DNA of 64,000 bases, taken from the IMG/VR virus record IMGVR_UViG_3300044739_000018, positions 32,001 through 96,000 of that record, one strand, 5' to 3'. Shown in pieces: positions 10,357 to 62,289 of the stretch; position 1 is the stretch's first letter; every line of letters begins with the position of its first letter. A program made the position numbers and the translations under genes. Under the pieces are notes generated by a model. The model saw only the letters and a program-made list of their open reading frames with translations. It had not been told where the DNA came from and searched no databases. Source of the stretch: a virus.

Positions 10357-10560
10357 TTACGGAGCGGGCGGCTCCAGGATGGCCCGGATCAGTTCTTCTG
10401 TGAGGAAGTCCAGACCTGTCGCATCTTGGTTGACCAGCTTGTCGTTGCGCTCCAGCACGGCACGCACGTTGATGCGCAGCATGGGGGCGATGGCTTGGAA
10501 CAACTGCTGTTGCATGTTGCTCAGCATGTTCAGGAAGTCGGGCGGTAGGTCAGGTTCCAT
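10357..10560 (-). CDS. Hypothetical protein
   Basis: AAGGAG RBS. Confidence 0.5.
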   Translation of the reverse strand: MEPDLPPDFLNMLSNMQQQLFQAIAPMLRINVRAVLERNDKLVNQDATGLDFLTEELIRAILEPPAP

Positions 10561-54842: not shown

Positions 54843-55953
54843 TGTGCGGTCCCACCCTTCTTCATGCAGCATCCCGAGCTGTACTCGGGGTAGGTGCAAG
54901 GGGACGCTACCGATCCCTGAAGGGCACGTGGCACCACCTAGCGGGGACCTATGTACGGGCGCGCCGAAGCCGGGCGCTAGGCCCGGTTCCGGACGGCCGC
55001 CTACTCTCCTTCGGCGCGACTCCACATGGAGCCGTTGTACGTGCGCACCTGTCCACCCCAGACGCGTCCCCACCGCTCGCGCGGCCCGAGTGACGTGCTC
55101 TTTCGGGTAGCCATGAAGTCGAGGTCGGCCTTCGTGCTCAGCCGCGTTGCTGCCTTGGACTCACCGGCGAACGAGTTGCGTGGCGCGAACCGCAATGCCA
55201 GGGGCTGAGCGTTCACGCGTGCCTTCATGGCGCTAACCATGATGCGCACGTAGAACGAGCAGGCTGGATCAGGGCATACGCCACCCGTCCCGTGCCGGTG
55301 CGGCGCAAGGCCGCGCGGAATGAGAGCGAGGGACATAAGATCCTCCTCTTGTTTGGCCGCGTTGAACTAAGGGGACCATCCCCGACCACGGAGCGCGGTC
55401 GTTCAAAGCAGCGGCGGTTGTCTCTCCGCCTCCCGGCGTCGCAGCCGGGCACAGCCCTAGCTTAACCCAGGGCATACGGTAGTGCCAAGGATTCCCAGAT
55501 TTCGCATAAGTGCAGGTCAGAGGCCCGGGGGGGGTCCGGTATGGGCGGAATGTCCGGTTTGAATTGCTTCGCCTGGTATCCCCGTACGCAGCGAAGAAAG
55601 TCAAAAGTCTAGAGTTGACTCTAGGGTTGGCGAGTCTGAGGTCTCGTGAACGGACGTTTTGAGATCTGTTGCCAAGCACCGCAACAGGGCTGACCTGCCC
55701 GGACGCGTTCCGACAGACGCGGCTGAACAGATTTCACAAGCTCACAATCGCCAACGGACGTTCTGTGGAAATCGAACGAGAAATCAGCTAATGGCGATTT
55801 GACAGCCGCGAAGGCGCAGGTCAGGGGTTGTCAAGACCAACAAACTAGTTGGATTTGTCGTTCGATCCTATGCCAACGGACGTTGAAATGGTTTTGTCCA
55901 CTTCTCCTGGAGGAATGCTGGCGTCAGGGAGACCCGGGCTGTATTCTGCTGGG

Positions 55954-56529
55954 ATGTTCGAACGGTTCACTGACAAGGCGCGAAGGATCCTCGTTGTATC
56001 CCAGGAGGAGGCTCGCGAACTCGACCACAACTTCCTCGGAACCGAGCACATCATGTTGGCGATGCTGCACGAGGAAGACACCATCCCTCATGACGTGCTG
56101 GTCACCATGGGTGCCGACTACGAGCAGGCACAGAAGCTCGTCCGAGCAGCCGTGCCCGCGACAGGCGCGAGCGGCCAGGCTCCGTTCACGCCTCGGGCCA
56201 AGAAGGTCTTGGAACTCTCGCTGCGGGAAGCCCTCCAGCTTGGGCATAACTGGATTGGTCCCGAGCACATGATTCTCGCCTTGGTTCGTGAGGGTGACGG
56301 CATCGGTGTTGCCGTGCTGGAGCAGATGGGTCTCGACTGGGGAGTCATTCGCCAGGGCGTGATCGAGGAAGTGGGCAAGAAGCTCCCTCGTATGCCCGCA
56401 GCAAGGACTGTTACGCTGCCCCACGATGAGGCCAAGGAGCTGCGTGAATGGATTCTGCGGTTCGGCGGCTTGGTAAACCCGCTTCCCCATGCTCTGGACG
56501 CTGTATTGCGGCGCCTCAACAACCTTTAA
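55954..56529 (+). CDS. Stand-alone Clp N-terminal repeat-domain protein (ClpC N-domain-like)
   Basis: MFERFTDKARR...LGTEH and PFTPRAKKVLELSLREALQLGHNWIGPEH; no AAA domain. Confidence 0.9.
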   Translation: MFERFTDKARRILVVSQEEARELDHNFLGTEHIMLAMLHEEDTIPHDVLVTMGADYEQAQKLVRAAVPATGASGQAPFTPRAKKVLELSLREALQLGHNWIGPEHMILALVREGDGIGVAVLEQMGLDWGVIRQGVIEEVGKKLPRMPAARTVTLPHDEAKELREWILRFGGLVNPLPHALDAVLRRLNNL

Positions 56530-56631: not shown

Positions 56632-57137
56632 TGCCTGAGTAGGCGCATTGGTATGAGTTCAGACGCTGGCATGACGTAGGCACCTTTGAAGGTGCCCTCT
56701 GTTGAGATGTGCTTGATGTCGAAGCCGTATGCCCACCCCACGAACACCACTTTGATGGGTGGAGTCAATGTCTCGACCAATGCCAGGATGTAGATGCTCT
56801 CATCATGCCGTTCTCGGGGCCGAACGGCGAGGCGATACAACTCGTGCGGCTTGCTCCTGCGCATCAACGATGTCTTCACGTCGATGCAGCCGAAGTCCGA
56901 CCCGCCATCACCGACCAACGGGTTCTTGTCGATCTCGGCGCGCCGTTGGAAGTACATCTCCTCGGCTCCCATGTACCGATGCAGTGCAAGTTCCCCGAGC
57001 TGCCCAACGAGCTGATCTTCGATCAACGAGGATTGACGGTCGTCTCCTCGGACCCAGCTCACTCCGCCAATGCAAGCGTTCTCAACGTGCGTTTGAATCC
57101 GGTCGAGCGTCTGCTTGTTGATCAGCGTGTGTATCAC
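56613..57137 (-). CDS. Putative PD-(D/E)XK nuclease-fold protein
   Basis: GQLGE helix, DGGSD...IDVKT, VGW. Confidence 0.6.
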   Translation of the reverse strand: MIHTLINKQTLDRIQTHVENACIGGVSWVRGDDRQSSLIEDQLVGQLGELALHRYMGAEEMYFQRRAEIDKNPLVGDGGSDFGCIDVKTSLMRRSKPHELYRLAVRPRERHDESIYILALVETLTPPIKVVFVGWAYGFDIKHISTEGTFKGAYVMPASELIPMRLLRHALTLL

Positions 57138-57543
57138 GGCGGATCCTCTCGATCTCTAGCTGCACGGCGAGGTCGTCAAGTTTCTCGTTGGTCTTGCGCA
57201 GCTCGATCAAGATGTTCGCGAGCAACTGCGCCGTTCCGTGGTCAGAAGTTCCCTTCGACGTGATCTCGTGGACGGCGCAGTAGTAGGAGCCGGGCGCACT
57301 GTTCGGCTCGCGGCAGAGCTTCTCCTGGCATTCGGTCGGCGGCTGCGGCACCGGGGCTGGCAGGCTCGACCGGAGCGTGTGGATCTTCGTCAGGATTTCC
57401 GGACGGGCCAGCGTCATCTTCTCGTGGGCGTACACGATGTCGAGTTCGTCGTCGTATAGCTCGGGGAGCAAGGGCAGGATCTCCGACACCCGCATGTCGT
57501 CGTAGTCCTCGATCACTATGTCCATCTTCAGTTCATCAGTCAT
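57082..57543 (-). CDS. Hypothetical protein
   Basis: IEDYDDMRVSEILPLL...E...R..IL motif; GAGG RBS abuts the array. Confidence 0.6.
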   Translation of the reverse strand: MTDELKMDIVIEDYDDMRVSEILPLLPELYDDELDIVYAHEKMTLARPEILTKIHTLRSSLPAPVPQPPTECQEKLCREPNSAPGSYYCAVHEITSKGTSDHGTAQLLANILIELRKTNEKLDDLAVQLEIERIRRDTHADQQADARPDSNAR

Positions 57544-57549
57544 CGTGCC

Positions 57550-59590
57550 TCGGATAGTCGGCGTGGGCCGGAGAGTTCCGGGTGGACCAGTCGGATGGGA
57601 GGGGTCGAGGCTAGTTGGGTCGGGGTGGGACGGGAAGTCGGTTGGCTCGGTGTGGGGCGAACTGGTTCGTCGGGCGGGGTGGGGCGGGGATGACCAGGCA
57701 TGTCAGGTGGTCCGACGCGGGGAGAAGGGGGCAGGCTGGGTTAGTCGGTAGGGCTGCTGTGGGACGGGGCGGGTAGTCGGCTGGGGACGGGTTGACTGGC
57801 ATAGGCTCGGGAAGTCGGGCAGGCCCGGGTCGGGATGGCGAGGGACGCGACGGGCTGGGGAGCGATGGGTAGGCGGGGGCAGTCGGGATGGGAGCGGGGG
57901 GACGACTCGGCTTGTCGGACAGGTGCGGAAGGGTGCGGTCTGTCGAAGCGAGTGGGGTGCGGGTCGGTGCGACAAGGTTCGTCGTAAGGGGTCGGGCCGC
58001 GCGGGGTCGGGCGGGGAGGGTTGGGTAGTCGGAGCGGGACGAGAGGGTTGGGGGCGCACCGGGGAGGGGCGGGCAGGAACGTCAGTTGGGGCGTGTTGAT
58101 GTGGCTGGGCTTGGATGGTCGGCTTGGATCGAGACGGACGGGGCGGGCAGGGGTCGGCGGGGGTAGTCGTTTGATCAGGGTCGGGTTGCGCTGGGCCGGG
58201 TAGTCGGCTTGGGTCGGGAAGGGTCGGGCGATCTTGGGTCGGCTTGTCACGTGGGAAGCGAAGGCAAGGGGTGGGTAGTCGGAATGGGATGGACAGGACT
58301 GGCCGGAATAAGGTTAGTCACTTGGACAGAGTTGTCCTGGCGAGGGGAGACAAGTCGTATGGGTTGAGACGGCTTGGGATGCAGTCGGCCAGGGACGGGT
58401 CGTCATTCGGGCAGGGGGGATTTGGCATGGCTCGGGCAGTCATGCGTCTTGGGGCGGGTGGCTTCGGGGTGGCATGTCAGATGGGGCGAAAAGGGAGGGA
58501 CGGGTGAGGTCCGGATAGTCGCGCTGGGGCGTGCGGGCACGGGACGGCATGAGTAGTCGCGTAGGTGTGAGACGGGTGGGATAGGCATGGCGTGTCATGC
58601 GGGATGGGTGGACCCGGATGGACGGGGGAGGGGGCGGGTGGGGTTGTCGTAAGGGTCGGCTCGGGAAGGCTTGCCGGGTGATCGGGCGGGCTTGGCTCGG
58701 GAAGTCGTTAGGGCCGGGAGGAGTCGGGGTGGCGAGGGTAGTCGGCCAGGATTGGTCGAGGCCGTGCCGGTATGGACCGGATAGTCGCTCGGGGCGAGAC
58801 GGAGAGCGCCGGGGTGGCATGGGTTGTCGGGGTGGGACGGCTCGGGCGGGGCAGGGTGGGGCCGGATCGGGGGGAGCCGGGCGGTGACGACTCGGGCCGG
58901 GACGGGACGTCGATGCGTGCAGGGACGCGATGGAACGGGGAGGGTAGTCAGGAGGGGATGCGAAGGGTCGGGTTGGGTAGTCGCCAGGGAGGGGGCGTCG
59001 GGGGCAGGGTCGGACGGGGTTGGGTGGTCGAGCAGGGATGCGTTGGATCGGGGAGACCTGGGAAGTCGACCGGACAGGGGCGGGCCGAGGCGCGAAGGGC
59101 TGGGGTCGGGTAGTCGAGAGGGCGGTGACGAGGTGGCTAGGGCGGGATAGTCGCGTGGCGTGGGCCGAGGCGGTACGGGTGGACCCGGGTAGTCAGACGA
59201 CTTGGGGCGGGTGGGACCGGTAAGTCGAAAGAATAGGTCTGACTAGGGAGGGGTAGTCGGATTGATTAGGAGGGCCGCGGCTGGGGGTGGTAAGGGAAGT
59301 CGGTGAGCGCGGGGTTGGGTCGACCAGGGAAGTCAGATGGTAGGGCCAGGGAAGCCGTGACTCGGGACGGGTAGTCGTGCGGGGTGGGTTGAGCTGAGGA
59401 GGCGGGGGTGGGATTGGTTGGTCAGATGGGGCAGGGGATGAAGCGCCGATGGGCTGGGCTGGGCAGGGAAGTCAGATGGGGCGGGTTGGGATGTTGAGAC
59501 GAGACGGGGGCAGGCGGGGGATGTCGGCGGGGGCAGGAGCGGGACGGCGTGGGCAGCGTTGCGACGGATTGGGGAGGGACGGGTAGTCGT
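57550..59590 (-). repeat. Non-coding pentamer-periodic array (about 48 units), candidate guide-RNA array
   Basis: G-G-S-N-N pentamers on + punctuated by about 49 GTC delimiters (mostly GGGTAGTCG/GGGAAGTCG); spacings almost all 5n+2 or 5n+3; strong G skew; no credible ORF. Confidence 0.9.
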
Positions 59591-59593
59591 GTA

Positions 59594-59669
59594 CCGGGAG
59601 TAACCCGGGTCCAAGTTGCCAAGTTCGTTGTTGCAGAACGAACGAGACCGGCTACCCCGAAGGGTAGCC
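59594..59669 (-). promoter_or_regulatory. Array leader hairpins
   Basis: GGCTACCC-TTCG-GGGTAGCC (59650-59669) and CCGGG-TTACT-CCCGG (59594-59608). Confidence 0.6.
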
Positions 59670-59705
59670 CGTCACGTTCAGCCTTTCAAGAGCAAGTTCT
59701 TTTCC

Positions 59706-59912
59706 TCAACGTTTGTTGAGAAGGCGGTGCAAGGCCCGAATGCTCTCAGGCCACTCGTCGTTGGGGAACACGTCGGACAGCGGCTCGCATGACAGCACAC
59801 GGAAGCACGCCTTCTGGCAGCGGTGATGGCACCAGCCGTCGTCCGGGCAGTGCCAGATGGTGTGCATGTCGTCGGTCGGGTCCCGGCCTACCTGCGGCGC
59901 TTCCGTTGCCAT
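59706..59912 (-). CDS. Small Cys/His-rich protein
   Basis: CPDDGWCHHRC...CFRV..CEPLS; overlaps upstream ORF. Confidence 0.55.
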   Translation of the reverse strand: MATEAPQVGRDPTDDMHTIWHCPDDGWCHHRCQKACFRVLSCEPLSDVFPNDEWPESIRALHRLLNKR

Positions 59913-60100
59913 TCTTCCCTTGCCTTCTCCAGCGTCTGGCCCTCCGACTTGCTGCCGAACCTGCGGGCAGGGTCATCGGGATCGGGGAAGACCCCGCAAC
60001 GACCACACCGCCCGGACCCATGGAATCGCACGATGGGCCAGACGGTGCAGTCGCACGCGATGAAGTCGATCCCGAAATCATCGAGCGGGTACTCGGCCAT
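59888..60100 (-). CDS. Small Cys-rich protein
   Basis: TAATG coupling to the Cas7-like stop; CDC...CGRC. Confidence 0.55.
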   Translation of the reverse strand: MAEYPLDDFGIDFIACDCTVWPIVRFHGSGRCGRCGVFPDPDDPARRFGSKSEGQTLEKAREEWQRKRRR

Positions 60101-60756
60101 TACAGCTTGGCCCACTCCACGACGGCGTACCGTCCGTAGCTCTGGCTGCGGGTGGCACCAATGCCCTGCTGCTCGCCGGTGGTCCAGAGATCGGCCCACT
60201 CGTCGTCGGAGAAGTCGAAGTCGCTTCGCACCGAGAACGGCACCTTCGCGTCCTCGACGTACTCCTCGTACTGAATGCCCGTTCCACGGAAGGTGGAGAC
60301 GAACCGCTGCTGGATGCCGGACGGCTCGGTGACGCCCAGGTGCAGGCGATCCTCGATGACGAAGATGTGCTCCGCCACGAATGCCTTCGTGCCCTTGCGG
60401 GTGGGACCCCAGCGGCGGTCAGGCCAGCGGATCGAAGCCGCCTCCTTCAACGCCGCCTTGAGCTGACGGCCCTCGATGTAGAGGCCCTCGTCGTCTCTTT
60501 TGAACCCATTGAGCTTGGTGGTCTTGACGACCTCGTCGATGGCGTCGTCCTTGACCACGCCGCGCTCCAGCATGGTCTTGGTGACCAGCTCAGAGATCAG
60601 CGCCTGGTTGTCGGCACCGAGGGTCTTCTTGATCCAGCCCTCGGCCACCTTGGGGTCGGACGGGATGCCGCCGACCAGGTGATCGACCTGGAGCACGCCG
60701 CCGAAGCGGTTCTTGTAGAGGGCGTCGCGATGCTTCTCGAACACACTGTTTGCCAT
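60100..60756 (-). CDS. Stand-alone Cas7/RAMP-superfamily protein
   Basis: GLYIEGRQLKAALKEAA aligns with the RAMP IPGxxLKGxLR motif; C-terminal Gly-rich loop GIGATRSQSYGRYAV; AAGGAG RBS. Confidence 0.82.
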   Translation of the reverse strand: MANSVFEKHRDALYKNRFGGVLQVDHLVGGIPSDPKVAEGWIKKTLGADNQALISELVTKTMLERGVVKDDAIDEVVKTTKLNGFKRDDEGLYIEGRQLKAALKEAASIRWPDRRWGPTRKGTKAFVAEHIFVIEDRLHLGVTEPSGIQQRFVSTFRGTGIQYEEYVEDAKVPFSVRSDFDFSDDEWADLWTTGEQQGIGATRSQSYGRYAVVEWAKL

Positions 60757-60777
60757 GATGTTCTCCTTACGGTTCGG

Positions 60778-61299
60778 TTAGACGGATTCCTGCGTGATGC
60801 TTTGGTACAGCCGGGTGAACTCCTCGTCGGAGATCACGTCCTTGACGGTCTTGCCGGTCGGGACCTGCTTGGCAAGCTGCTTGAAGAACATGGCCTCCAT
60901 CGAGAGCCTCGCGGCCTGGCTGCCATAGCTCGTGGCGACATAGCTCAGATCGGCGTTCGTCATGTCGCCCACCTGCCGCCTGGTGTTGCTGTCGTCGATG
61001 ACATACATCTGCGACAGCGGGTTCTCGCCCGCCCTGACCGCGGCCACGAAGTTGTCAAACTTCTCGGCACGCATGAGCTGGCGGGCCTCGGCCCGACGCT
61101 TCGCCAAGGTGTGGCTGGCGACCTCACGGAGCTGACCGAGGGCCAGGTCGTGCTGCCACTCCGACAGATGCTCCGGTGCATGCTCCTCCAGCCAAGCGAG
61201 GGCCTTCTCGGCAACCTCTCGGCTGGTGAAGTCACCATGCTCGGGGATGGCCTGCTCCACCGCGTTCTTCACGATGATCGCTGGCCGAATGTCGTCCAT
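60778..61299 (-). CDS. Helical hypothetical protein, first gene of the Cas7-like operon
   Basis: GGAGGAGG RBS; stop 21 nt upstream of the Cas7-like start. Confidence 0.7.
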   Translation of the reverse strand: MDDIRPAIIVKNAVEQAIPEHGDFTSREVAEKALAWLEEHAPEHLSEWQHDLALGQLREVASHTLAKRRAEARQLMRAEKFDNFVAAVRAGENPLSQMYVIDDSNTRRQVGDMTNADLSYVATSYGSQAARLSMEAMFFKQLAKQVPTGKTVKDVISDEEFTRLYQSITQESV

Positions 61300-61342
61300 G
61301 GTCCTCCTCCTAATTACGGTGTGGTTGGTGCTGCGGAGAGGC

Positions 61343-61371
61343 AAGGTACATCCATAAGGAGTAGAAGTCAA
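61343..61371 (-). promoter_or_regulatory. Sigma70-type promoter of the Cas7-like operon
   Basis: TTGACT-N17-TACCTT in an AT-rich patch. Confidence 0.65.
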
Positions 61372-61449: not shown

Positions 61450-62289
61450 TCAGGTGGTCACCGGCTTGGCAACCTTGCTTGCCTTGACGATGGCCTTCTT
61501 CGTGGGCTTGGCACCGCGGAGCCGACCGTGCCGAGTGAAGGGGTCGCGCAGACGGCGACCGGAGTGCTTGTTGATGATCTTGATGAAGCTCCTCGCAAGC
61601 TCGATGTGATTGTTCGATCCGGTGACCGAACGGGTCCGAGCCTGGCTGTCCATCAAGAGGGCGCGCGGGGACTCGTTGCGCAGCGCGTCCGCGACCATGG
61701 ACGTGTCCAGGTCGGGGAAGGCGATGAGCGTCAGGGACAGGCCCTTGAGCACCCGGTCATCGAAGGCAGAGGCGAGGTTCGCCCACGCCGACGTGACGAC
61801 GTTCATCGTGCGCCGGACGGCAGTTGCGCCGCCCCGCTCGTACATCCAGTACATGGCCCGCACGGCACGGATGTTCTTGGCACCCGCGTCATTGCTGAGC
61901 TTGTAGCCGAACGACGTGATGATCTCGTCGATCTCCTTGGCCTTGGCCTCGCCAGCGAACAACTGCGCCCGGTGCCGAGCGGCGGGCGTGATGTTCTTGC
62001 GGCCCTCCTGAGCACGGACGAACAGGCTGGCCTGGTCCTGCGGGGTGTCGGGGCTGATCTGCGCCCAAGCTGTCGTGAAACCGAGGCGACGGAGCGCCTC
62101 CAGCCGGTGCTGACCGTCCCACACCCATGTCGGGGCCGAGTGGTCGTCGTGGGCGATCATCAGAACGCCCAACAGACGCGGGTCGTACTCAGCGACGATC
62201 TTCATGACCCGGCCCTCATCCAGCTCCCGCTGGTAGCCCGGATGCACACGAAGACCGCTGAGCGGAATCTCCTTGTACTGCGTGGTCAT
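61450..62289 (-). CDS. ParB/Srx-like N-terminal domain protein (DUF6551-like)
   Basis: YQREL...RV..I...YDPRLLG, WDGQHRLEAL, QASLF. Confidence 0.8.
   Translation of the reverse strand: MTTQYKEIPLSGLRVHPGYQRELDEGRVMKIVAEYDPRLLGVLMIAHDDHSAPTWVWDGQHRLEALRRLGFTTAWAQISPDTPQDQASLFVRAQEGRKNITPAARHRAQLFAGEAKAKEIDEIITSFGYKLSNDAGAKNIRAVRAMYWMYERGGATAVRRTMNVVTSAWANLASAFDDRVLKGLSLTLIAFPDLDTSMVADALRNESPRALLMDSQARTRSVTGSNNHIELARSFIKIINKHSGRRLRDPFTRHGRLRGAKPTKKAIVKASKVAKPVTT

What the first reader, a model, noticed from the sequence alone, without database searches (positions are those of the whole stretch)
57550..61371. Candidate non-CRISPR RNA-guided system: lone Cas7/RAMP gene plus a 2-kb pentamer-coded array
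Seen: a promoter (61343-61371) drives a helical protein, a 218-aa protein with RAMP/Cas7 hallmarks (YIEGRQLKAALKEA; GIGATRSQSYGRY), two tiny Cys-rich ORFs, a hairpin leader, and then about 2 kb of non-coding DNA with 5-nt periodicity. No cas1/2/3/5/6/8/10 and no repeat-spacer CRISPR array were recognised in the window. Established: Cas7 proteins polymerise along guide RNA with a fixed nucleotide step per subunit. Inference: each pentamer is one subunit footprint. The conserved positions would bind protein and the variable positions would jointly spell a gapped target, so each array unit is a guide, perhaps against competing phages or host defence genes. From memory, unverified: phage Cas7-like 'VIPR' systems with GGY/NN RNAs have been reported. 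This locus may be a relative, but its GTC-delimited units, GGG/GGC-dominated triplets and apparent C-rich transcript orientation look different.
Basis: partly seen in the sequence, partly recalled or inferred. Interest (0 to 1): 0.97.

Follow-up and report, generated by a model that had tools for sequence, protein, structure and literature searches.

The report
Phage VIPR system, C-rich 50-guide array
A 163-kb phage carries a VIPR system (a CRISPR-related RNA-guided gene silencer first described in 2026) with an unusually large, C-rich array of about 50 short guides, three of which decode to conserved motifs of rival elements' integrase genes and of a bacterial DNA-repair gene that accompanies methyltransferases.

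Summary
Observation confirmed. The 218-aa protein has a RAMP/Cas7 fold and is homologous to SUSP1 Vipr (HHalign 94.6%, E 7e-8). The 2-kb array has the strongest period-5 signal in a complete 163-kb phage. No Cas1, Cas3-HD, Cas5d or Pfam-RAMP match, and no integrase, was found in it. On the gene strand the array parses into about 50 units, GAC-NN-(NCC-NN)n, mostly 6-8 NN. Read with VIPR's one-base skip, two units spell the tyrosine-integrase catalytic motif (21/24 and 23/26 matches in Actinomycetota integrase genes, controls 0) and one spells the Vsr endonuclease motif (17/18). Relatives' guides hit rival vipr genes (16/16, own gene spared) and the ImmA/IrrE motif. So this is a VIPR system, a known kind. 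It differs from the characterised type II in its triplet (NCC, not GGY), short tail-less units, array size and accessory gene. The guide is probably the C-rich strand (about 75%, no RNA data). Non-canonical triplets are already reported (2026 preprint), and this scan noted the same clade on other phages. The decoded targets were not in the short notes returned. Verdict: new variant of a known kind.

The parts
61343..61371 (-). sigma70-like promoter of the vap-vipr operon
   Evidence: sequence; one of two strict matches in the genome, pattern drawn post hoc; conserved in L239
60778..61299 (-). 173-aa helical accessory protein (vap-like)
   Evidence: homologue in 20 of 26 related phages; helical model, pLDDT 68; no similarity to SUSP1 Vap1
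60100..60756 (-). Vipr: 218-aa RAMP/Cas7-fold protein
   Evidence: AF2 pLDDT 82; Csm3 Z 11.7, rmsd 3.2, 149 aligned; Foldseek E 5e-7; HHalign to SUSP1 Vipr family 94.6%
59888..60100 (-). 70-aa Cys-rich ORF, probably a passenger
   Evidence: a similar ORF follows vipr in the close relative L240; no Pfam or PHROG match
59706..59867 (-). 53-aa Cys-rich ORF, probably a passenger
   Evidence: phrog_13737 (unknown function), E 9e-7
59661..59689 (-). second promoter-like site pointing into the array on the C-rich strand
   Evidence: TTGAAA-17-TACCCT; 13 loose matches genome-wide, none on the + strand at the other end of the array
59650..59669 (-). hairpin with cUUCGg loop overlapping the -10 box; likely terminator of the upstream operon
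   Evidence: fold z -6.1 on - strand, -5.5 on + strand; function inferred
57541..59588 (-). guide array: about 50 GAC-started units, 41 of them clean with 6 or more NN
59526..59588 (-). first unit, 12 NN; decodes to the tyrosine-integrase catalytic motif
   Evidence: 21/24 at 7 sites in 6 of 401 genomes, control 0; all in the integrase motif; PF00589 in 3 of the 4 scanned
59377..59423 (-). unit with 9 NN; decodes to the Vsr endonuclease motif
   Evidence: 17/18 in 10 of 151 genomes, control 0; PF03852 in 6 of 6 scanned, C5 methyltransferase next door in 4
57817..57884 (-). unit with 13 NN; decodes to the tyrosine-integrase catalytic motif
   Evidence: 23/26 in 3 of 401 genomes, control 0, all PF00589; 16-nt core: 29 of 32 exact IMG/VR hits lie in the integrase motif
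58521..58558 (-). unit with 7 NN; decode resembles an AlpA-type helix-turn-helix
   Evidence: decode; recognised by eye only, no Pfam hit
57082..57543 (-). 153-aa ORF whose ribosome-binding site abuts the last partial unit
   Evidence: the same arrangement as array-end/vipr junctions in relatives

Best explanation
A phage VIPR system of a divergent, probably actinobacterial clade. The array is transcribed on the C-rich (gene) strand from its own promoter and cut at the GAC junctions into short guides of about 32-68 nt (inferred). One Vipr subunit clamps each NCC triplet and presents the next two bases (by analogy with the SUSP1 structures). The dinucleotides pair with double-stranded DNA while every third target base is skipped, which matches the codon wobble position (code shown computationally; DNA binding inferred). 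The bound filament, helped by the vap protein, silences the gene without cutting (inferred). This integrase-less phage aims guides at the catalytic motif of tyrosine integrases of resident prophages, satellites or ICEs and at vsr genes of methyltransferase cassettes. That would keep competitors locked in the chromosome and perhaps dampen host restriction-modification loci.
For: Fold and homology. Arrays beside most homologues, with the GG-periodic strand always opposite to vipr. Units stay in phase from each GAC; clade triplets are C 52/75/96% at positions 1/2/3. Code: own units match integrase and Vsr motifs, reversed-pattern controls 0. A relative's guide matches 16/16 in 33 of 270 Vipr proteins while its own gene has 14/16, and 0 of 30 shuffle rounds gave a multi-hit. 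Four phages converge on the ImmA/IrrE HExxH motif with drifting triplets. Strand: arrays lie between the vap stop codon and the vipr ribosome-binding site; a promoter-like site faces into this array; hairpins follow downstream arrays on the sense strand (L236 z -3.6; L231 weaker, z -1.6). SUSP1 position 3 is 93% pyrimidine: the C strand keeps that rule (98%), the G strand breaks it (66% purine). The guanine-reading residues R138, D177, W178 are replaced while the Y3-pocket R179 is invariant as R203. The G strand has 19 G-quadruplex motifs. SUSP1 VIPR is shown to silence a satellite recombinase (10.64898/2026.10.15.759431).
Against: The matches found are to homologous genes in other species, not the real targets, and only 3 of 41 clean units are assigned. 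Five exact IMG/VR scans of other units gave nothing or only chance hits. The three decodes were picked by eye from about 90 readings. The 59650-59669 hairpin also folds on the + strand and could end a G-rich transcript. The host is inferred from relatives only.
Confidence: 0.68

Rival explanations
1. Same VIPR system and same targets, but the guide is the G-rich antisense RNA (GGN/NN, ending in GTC). This would be the NNNGG or 'staggered array' form already listed in the discovery paper.
For: The paper names NNNGG/NNNNG consensus types and staggered arrays with 1-nt overlap; unit spacings here are 5n+2 and 5n+3. All characterised Viprs bind G-rich RNA. The hairpin could terminate a + strand transcript.
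Against: It needs an antisense promoter inside the downstream gene in dozens of loci; the loose pattern found none, but it also found none on the C strand of the relatives. It breaks the position-3 pyrimidine rule, the G-reading residues are lost, and a lower-GC relative has NAC triplets on the sense strand, in line with reported GAC/CAC motifs.
Confidence: 0.18
2. C-rich guides recognise mRNA rather than double-stranded DNA. Every target family recognised so far is complementary to the mRNA, and the nearest solved fold is the RNA-targeting Csm3.
For: Integrase (two units), Vsr, rival vipr and ImmA/IrrE targets are all antisense decodes; best structural hits are type III/VII Cas7.
Against: A composition mixture gives only 60% antisense in the clade (CI 0.55-0.70) and 40% in this array (CI 0.15-0.65). 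Recognition was by eye. No Vipr structure was in the fold libraries, so Csm3 ranks first by default. SUSP1 VIPR binds DNA on either strand.
Confidence: 0.1
3. The array mainly acts as a decoy that soaks up or redirects rival phages' Vipr proteins.
For: Orphan vrRNAs used as decoys are described.
Against: The cognate vipr and vap genes are intact and adjacent; the guides aim at conserved catalytic motifs, not at repeated host DNA.
Confidence: 0.03
4. Low-complexity or structural DNA, a repetitive coding region, or a degenerate CRISPR array.
For: Extreme G skew; overlapping Pro-rich open frames up to 169 aa.
Against: Period 5 is incompatible with codons; no repeat-spacer pattern; the variable positions spell conserved protein motifs, and linkage to vipr is conserved.
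Confidence: 0.01

Closest known systems
Type II VIPR of Escherichia phage SUSP1 and the Pseudomonas fulva prophage clade (bioRxiv 10.64898/2026.04.26.720920, 10.64898/2026.04.26.720927, 10.64898/2026.10.15.759431; PDB 36pp)
   Same: Homologous single RAMP protein, an accessory gene, no CRISPR array, phage-borne, pentamer guides, one-base skip at the wobble position, recombinase and rival-vipr targets, own genome spared.
   Different: NCC triplets on the gene strand instead of GGY; about 50 back-to-back GAC-started units of mostly 6-8 repeats without a structured tail, against four vrRNAs of 9-16 repeats with a pseudoknot tail; G-reading residues replaced; unrelated accessory protein; tyrosine rather than serine recombinase; a vsr target.
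Other VIPR types I, III-VII, including staggered arrays and NNNGG/NNNNG consensus (same discovery paper)
   Same: Relaxed triplet; back-to-back units with possible 1-nt overlap.
   Different: Could not be compared: figures and data S4 are not held. This clade may already be one of these types, read on the opposite strand.
Non-canonical VIPR arrays, e.g. GAC/NN and CAC/NN (bioRxiv 10.64898/2026.10.21.760802)
   Same: Non-GGY triplet ending in C beside a Vipr-like fold.
   Different: Here GAC is only the first triplet of each unit and NCC fills the rest; the passages read give no targets or strand for those clusters.
Class 1 CRISPR Cas7/Csm3 (types III, IV-B, VII)
   Same: RAMP fold with thumb and G-loop.
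   Different: No repeat-spacer array and no Cas1, Cas3-HD, Cas5d match in the genome; gapped rather than contiguous pairing.

Membership tests
VIPR | Small RAMP protein with RRM core, thumb and G-loop | tested here: met
VIPR | Homology to a characterised Vipr | tested here: met
   profile-profile 94.6%, E 6.8e-8, 131 columns; pairwise BLAST alone shows nothing
VIPR | Minimal, mostly viral locus without CRISPR array or cas operon | tested here: met
   complete 163-kb virus record
VIPR | Adjacent pentamer array, fixed triplet (GGY or related consensus) alternating with variable NN | tested here: met
   NN kept while triplets drift between phages
VIPR | One-base-skip code aligned to the codon wobble position | tested here: met
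   computational:
VIPR | vap accessory gene with a DNA-related function | tested here: inconclusive
   conserved partner in 20 of 26 phages; no link to SUSP1 Vap1; best fold Z 5.8 on a low-confidence model
VIPR | No self-targeting | tested here: met
   the three decoded guides reach only 18/26, 16/24 and 14/18 in the own genome; no own integrase; short 12-nt guides have chance-level 11/12 hits
VIPR | Guide RNA expressed and co-purifying with Vipr; dsDNA binding and silencing | not testable with these tools
VIPR type II (SUSP1) | GGY triplet on the RNA, co-oriented with vipr | tested here: not met
   gene strand NCC; opposite strand GGN with 66% purine at position 3
VIPR type II (SUSP1) | 9-16 repeats plus a conserved structured 3' tail | tested here: not met
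   mostly 6-8 repeats, units abut, no tail or fold signal; no Rfam match
VIPR types I, III-VII | Placement in the published phylogeny and array architecture | not testable with these tools
   only figure legends are held
Class 1 CRISPR-Cas | Repeat-spacer array with Cas5/Cas6/large subunit | tested here: not met
   Cas6 and Cas8/10 not searched separately

The most novel reading that the evidence does not exclude
A VIPR lineage that has switched from guanine- to cytosine-reading, processes one long tail-less transcript into about 50 GAC-started guides, and uses the repertoire not only against rival mobile elements but against host methyltransferase/Vsr cassettes, possibly by binding mRNA. The C-reading part is likely (about 0.75); the host-defence targeting together with mRNA binding is the speculative part scored here.
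Probability: 0.08. Interest if true: 0.85.

Novelty: new variant of a known kind. Interest (0 to 1): 0.5.

Why it matters
It extends a newly described RNA-guided system to a large clade (1,329 close homologues) with a different scaffold code and CRISPR-sized guide repertoires. Guides can be read directly as peptides, which exposes their targets without target genomes. The array makes three open questions testable: how vrRNA arrays are processed without tails or ribozymes, how new guides are acquired, and whether phages use VIPR against host defence loci. A C-rich 32-43-nt guide would also be a smaller programmable repressor for high-GC hosts.

Tried and rejected
Pfam, PHROG and PDB sequence searches miss the Vipr protein; Rfam finds nothing. 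Blind skip-rule tests against 1.6-4.9 Mb of fetched loci were at or near chance; the skip-3 excess most likely reflects unmasked array copies. Exact IMG/VR scans for units 59588 (18 nt), 58828, 58520, 59525 and 58083 gave nothing or unrelated hits with no flank extension; chance hits also tend to fall in wobble phase, so phase alone is no evidence. An 18/20 match of unit 58083 in L172 and a 14/14 match of an L048 guide in this genome are within chance. Vipr-vap complex prediction: no verdict. The vap fold search gave no clear match. The promoter test across relatives was blank on both strands. Supplementary VIPR tables were unavailable. Decoded peptides sent to Pfam had ambiguous residues chosen by me, so those E-values are leads; the DNA pattern searches have no such choice.
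Full report
Observation. The minus strand carries a promoter-like site (61371-61343), a 173-aa helical ORF, a 218-aa ORF, two small Cys-rich ORFs, a strong hairpin and 2 kb without a credible gene. The non-coding stretch has identity autocorrelation z 9.2 at lag 5 and 8.0 at lag 10, and holds the seven best period-5 windows of the genome. The genome is a complete 163,481-bp virus record with direct terminal repeats. It has no match to Cas1, RAMPs, Cas5d, Cas3-HD, tyrosine integrase or serine recombinase families.

Protein. Sequence libraries do not name it. The AlphaFold model (pLDDT 82) matches Cas7-group RAMPs: Csm3 Z 11.7, rmsd 3.2 over 149 residues, with CRISPR RAMPs filling ranks 1-24. 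A deep profile of the clade aligns to the SUSP1 Vipr family at 94.6% probability, E 6.8e-8. In that alignment the SUSP1 residues that read the two guanines (R138, D177, W178) correspond to E164, A201 and T/S202, while R179 of the pyrimidine pocket is the invariant R203. The upstream helical gene has homologues in 20 of 26 related phages and is the vap of this clade by position. It shows no similarity to SUSP1 Vap1, and its fold is unresolved.

Array anatomy. On the gene strand each unit starts with GAC and stays in phase as GAC-NN-(NCC-NN)n, ending in a 2- or 3-base stub before the next GAC. There are about 50 units, 41 of them clean, mostly 32-43 nt. In 554 units called from 67 loci (some are nested false starts) the triplet is C at 52, 75 and 96% of positions 1, 2 and 3, and the NN positions are nearly free, except the first, which favours TA and TT. 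In every homologous locus with a detectable array the GG-periodic strand is opposite to vipr. The array usually starts at the vap stop codon and ends at the vipr ribosome-binding site.

The code. Writing each NN as the first two bases of a codon turns units into peptides. Unit 59588 reads GHATVQFTLDTY and unit 57884 reads HPSIETTLDIYGH (one choice among two-way ambiguities); both are the His...Tyr catalytic motif of tyrosine integrases. As DNA patterns with up to three mismatches they hit 6 and 3 of 401 Actinomycetota genomes, against 0 for the reversed pattern. All ten sites lie in that motif, and six of the seven genes scanned reach PF00589. The 16-base core of unit 57884 gives 32 exact IMG/VR hits, 29 of them in this motif. 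The six genes scanned are Vsr endonucleases, four beside C5 methyltransferases. In relatives, one guide matches rival vipr genes 16/16 and its own gene 14/16, and guides of four phages converge on the ImmA/IrrE HExxH motif with the NN kept and the triplets drifting. These are homologues of the true targets, not the targets. Most units remain unassigned, and blind searches were at chance.

Which strand is the RNA. Not shown. For the C-rich strand: operon architecture makes that RNA unavoidable; a promoter-like site faces into this array (one of 13 loose matches genome-wide); hairpins follow downstream arrays on the sense strand in two relatives. SUSP1 triplets are least conserved at position 1 and 93% pyrimidine at position 3, a gradient that only the C strand reproduces. 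The G-reading residues are gone; a lower-GC relative has sense-strand NAC triplets; and the G strand holds 19 quadruplex motifs. Against: all characterised guides are G-rich, the discovery paper lists NNNGG types and staggered arrays, and the leader hairpin folds on both strands. I put the C strand at about 0.75.

Mechanism. Shown here: fold, homology, array grammar, conserved linkage, and a one-base-skip code on conserved coding motifs. From the literature on SUSP1: one protomer per repeat, dsDNA triplex recognition, silencing, and suppression of a satellite recombinase. Inferred for this locus: processing at GAC, cytosine reading, and silencing of resident integrases and vsr-methyltransferase cassettes by an integrase-less phage. 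The host is probably an actinobacterium, judged from genome-borne homologues in Streptomyces, Nocardiopsis and Streptosporangium. All recognised targets are complementary to the mRNA if the C strand is the guide, which leaves a small opening for RNA targeting, but composition suggests both orientations.

Comparison and verdict. It works like VIPR and is a VIPR by homology and code. It is not type II (triplet and tail tests not met), and its place among types I and III-VII could not be tested. Non-canonical triplets such as GAC/NN and CAC/NN are reported, and earlier agents of this scan noted C-rich arrays of this clade. New variant of a known kind; interest 0.5, carried by the array size, the probable C-reading switch and the decoded targets, including a host methyltransferase-linked gene.

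Noticed in passing
window 60100-60756 vs L014:5934-5976: The vipr-targeting guide of phage L014 matches this window's vipr gene at 15/16, so this phage could be a target of rival VIPR phages.
   Followed up: yes
window 61450-62289 (-): DUF6551/ParB-like gene directly upstream of the operon; the same order in two close relatives, L239 and L240.
   Followed up: partly
window 55849-56529 (+): Stand-alone ClpC/ClpB N-terminal-domain protein (Clp_N, E 6e-25); possibly modulates host proteolysis.
   Followed up: no
window 55250-55800: Second, weak peak in the period scan (z 3.6): an AT-richer, palindrome-rich non-coding stretch with no GAC units; could be an origin or operator region.
   Followed up: partly
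L231 (Microcystis phage Mae-JY09, PP395641, 37713-38976): A named phage with a 34%-identical Vipr, a co-oriented GAC-unit array directly downstream and a terminal hairpin; the genes are annotated only as hypothetical.
   Followed up: partly
L234:2075-3000: Distant homologue in a lower-GC phage with GAC-started units and NAC triplets on the sense strand; links this clade to reported GAC/CAC arrays.
   Followed up: partly
L023:4100-6000; L095:4166-5958; L009; L018: Other very large (about 1.8 kb) or multiple arrays in the clade.
   Followed up: no
L109:3845, L111:185, L002:5392, L061:354, L084:1626: Shared guides that decode by eye to a PD-(D/E)xK nuclease motif, a HigA/XRE helix-turn-helix and, in sense orientation, an integrase box-II-like motif; no Pfam support for the two tested.
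   Followed up: partly
all arrays, first NN after GAC: Strong bias to TA and TT, although this dinucleotide matches the target in the four verified guides; may reflect a processing or acquisition constraint. Unexplained.
   Followed up: no
genome position 10388-10410 (-), outside the window: One lone unit-like match; the control pattern also gives one per strand, so probably chance.
   Followed up: no
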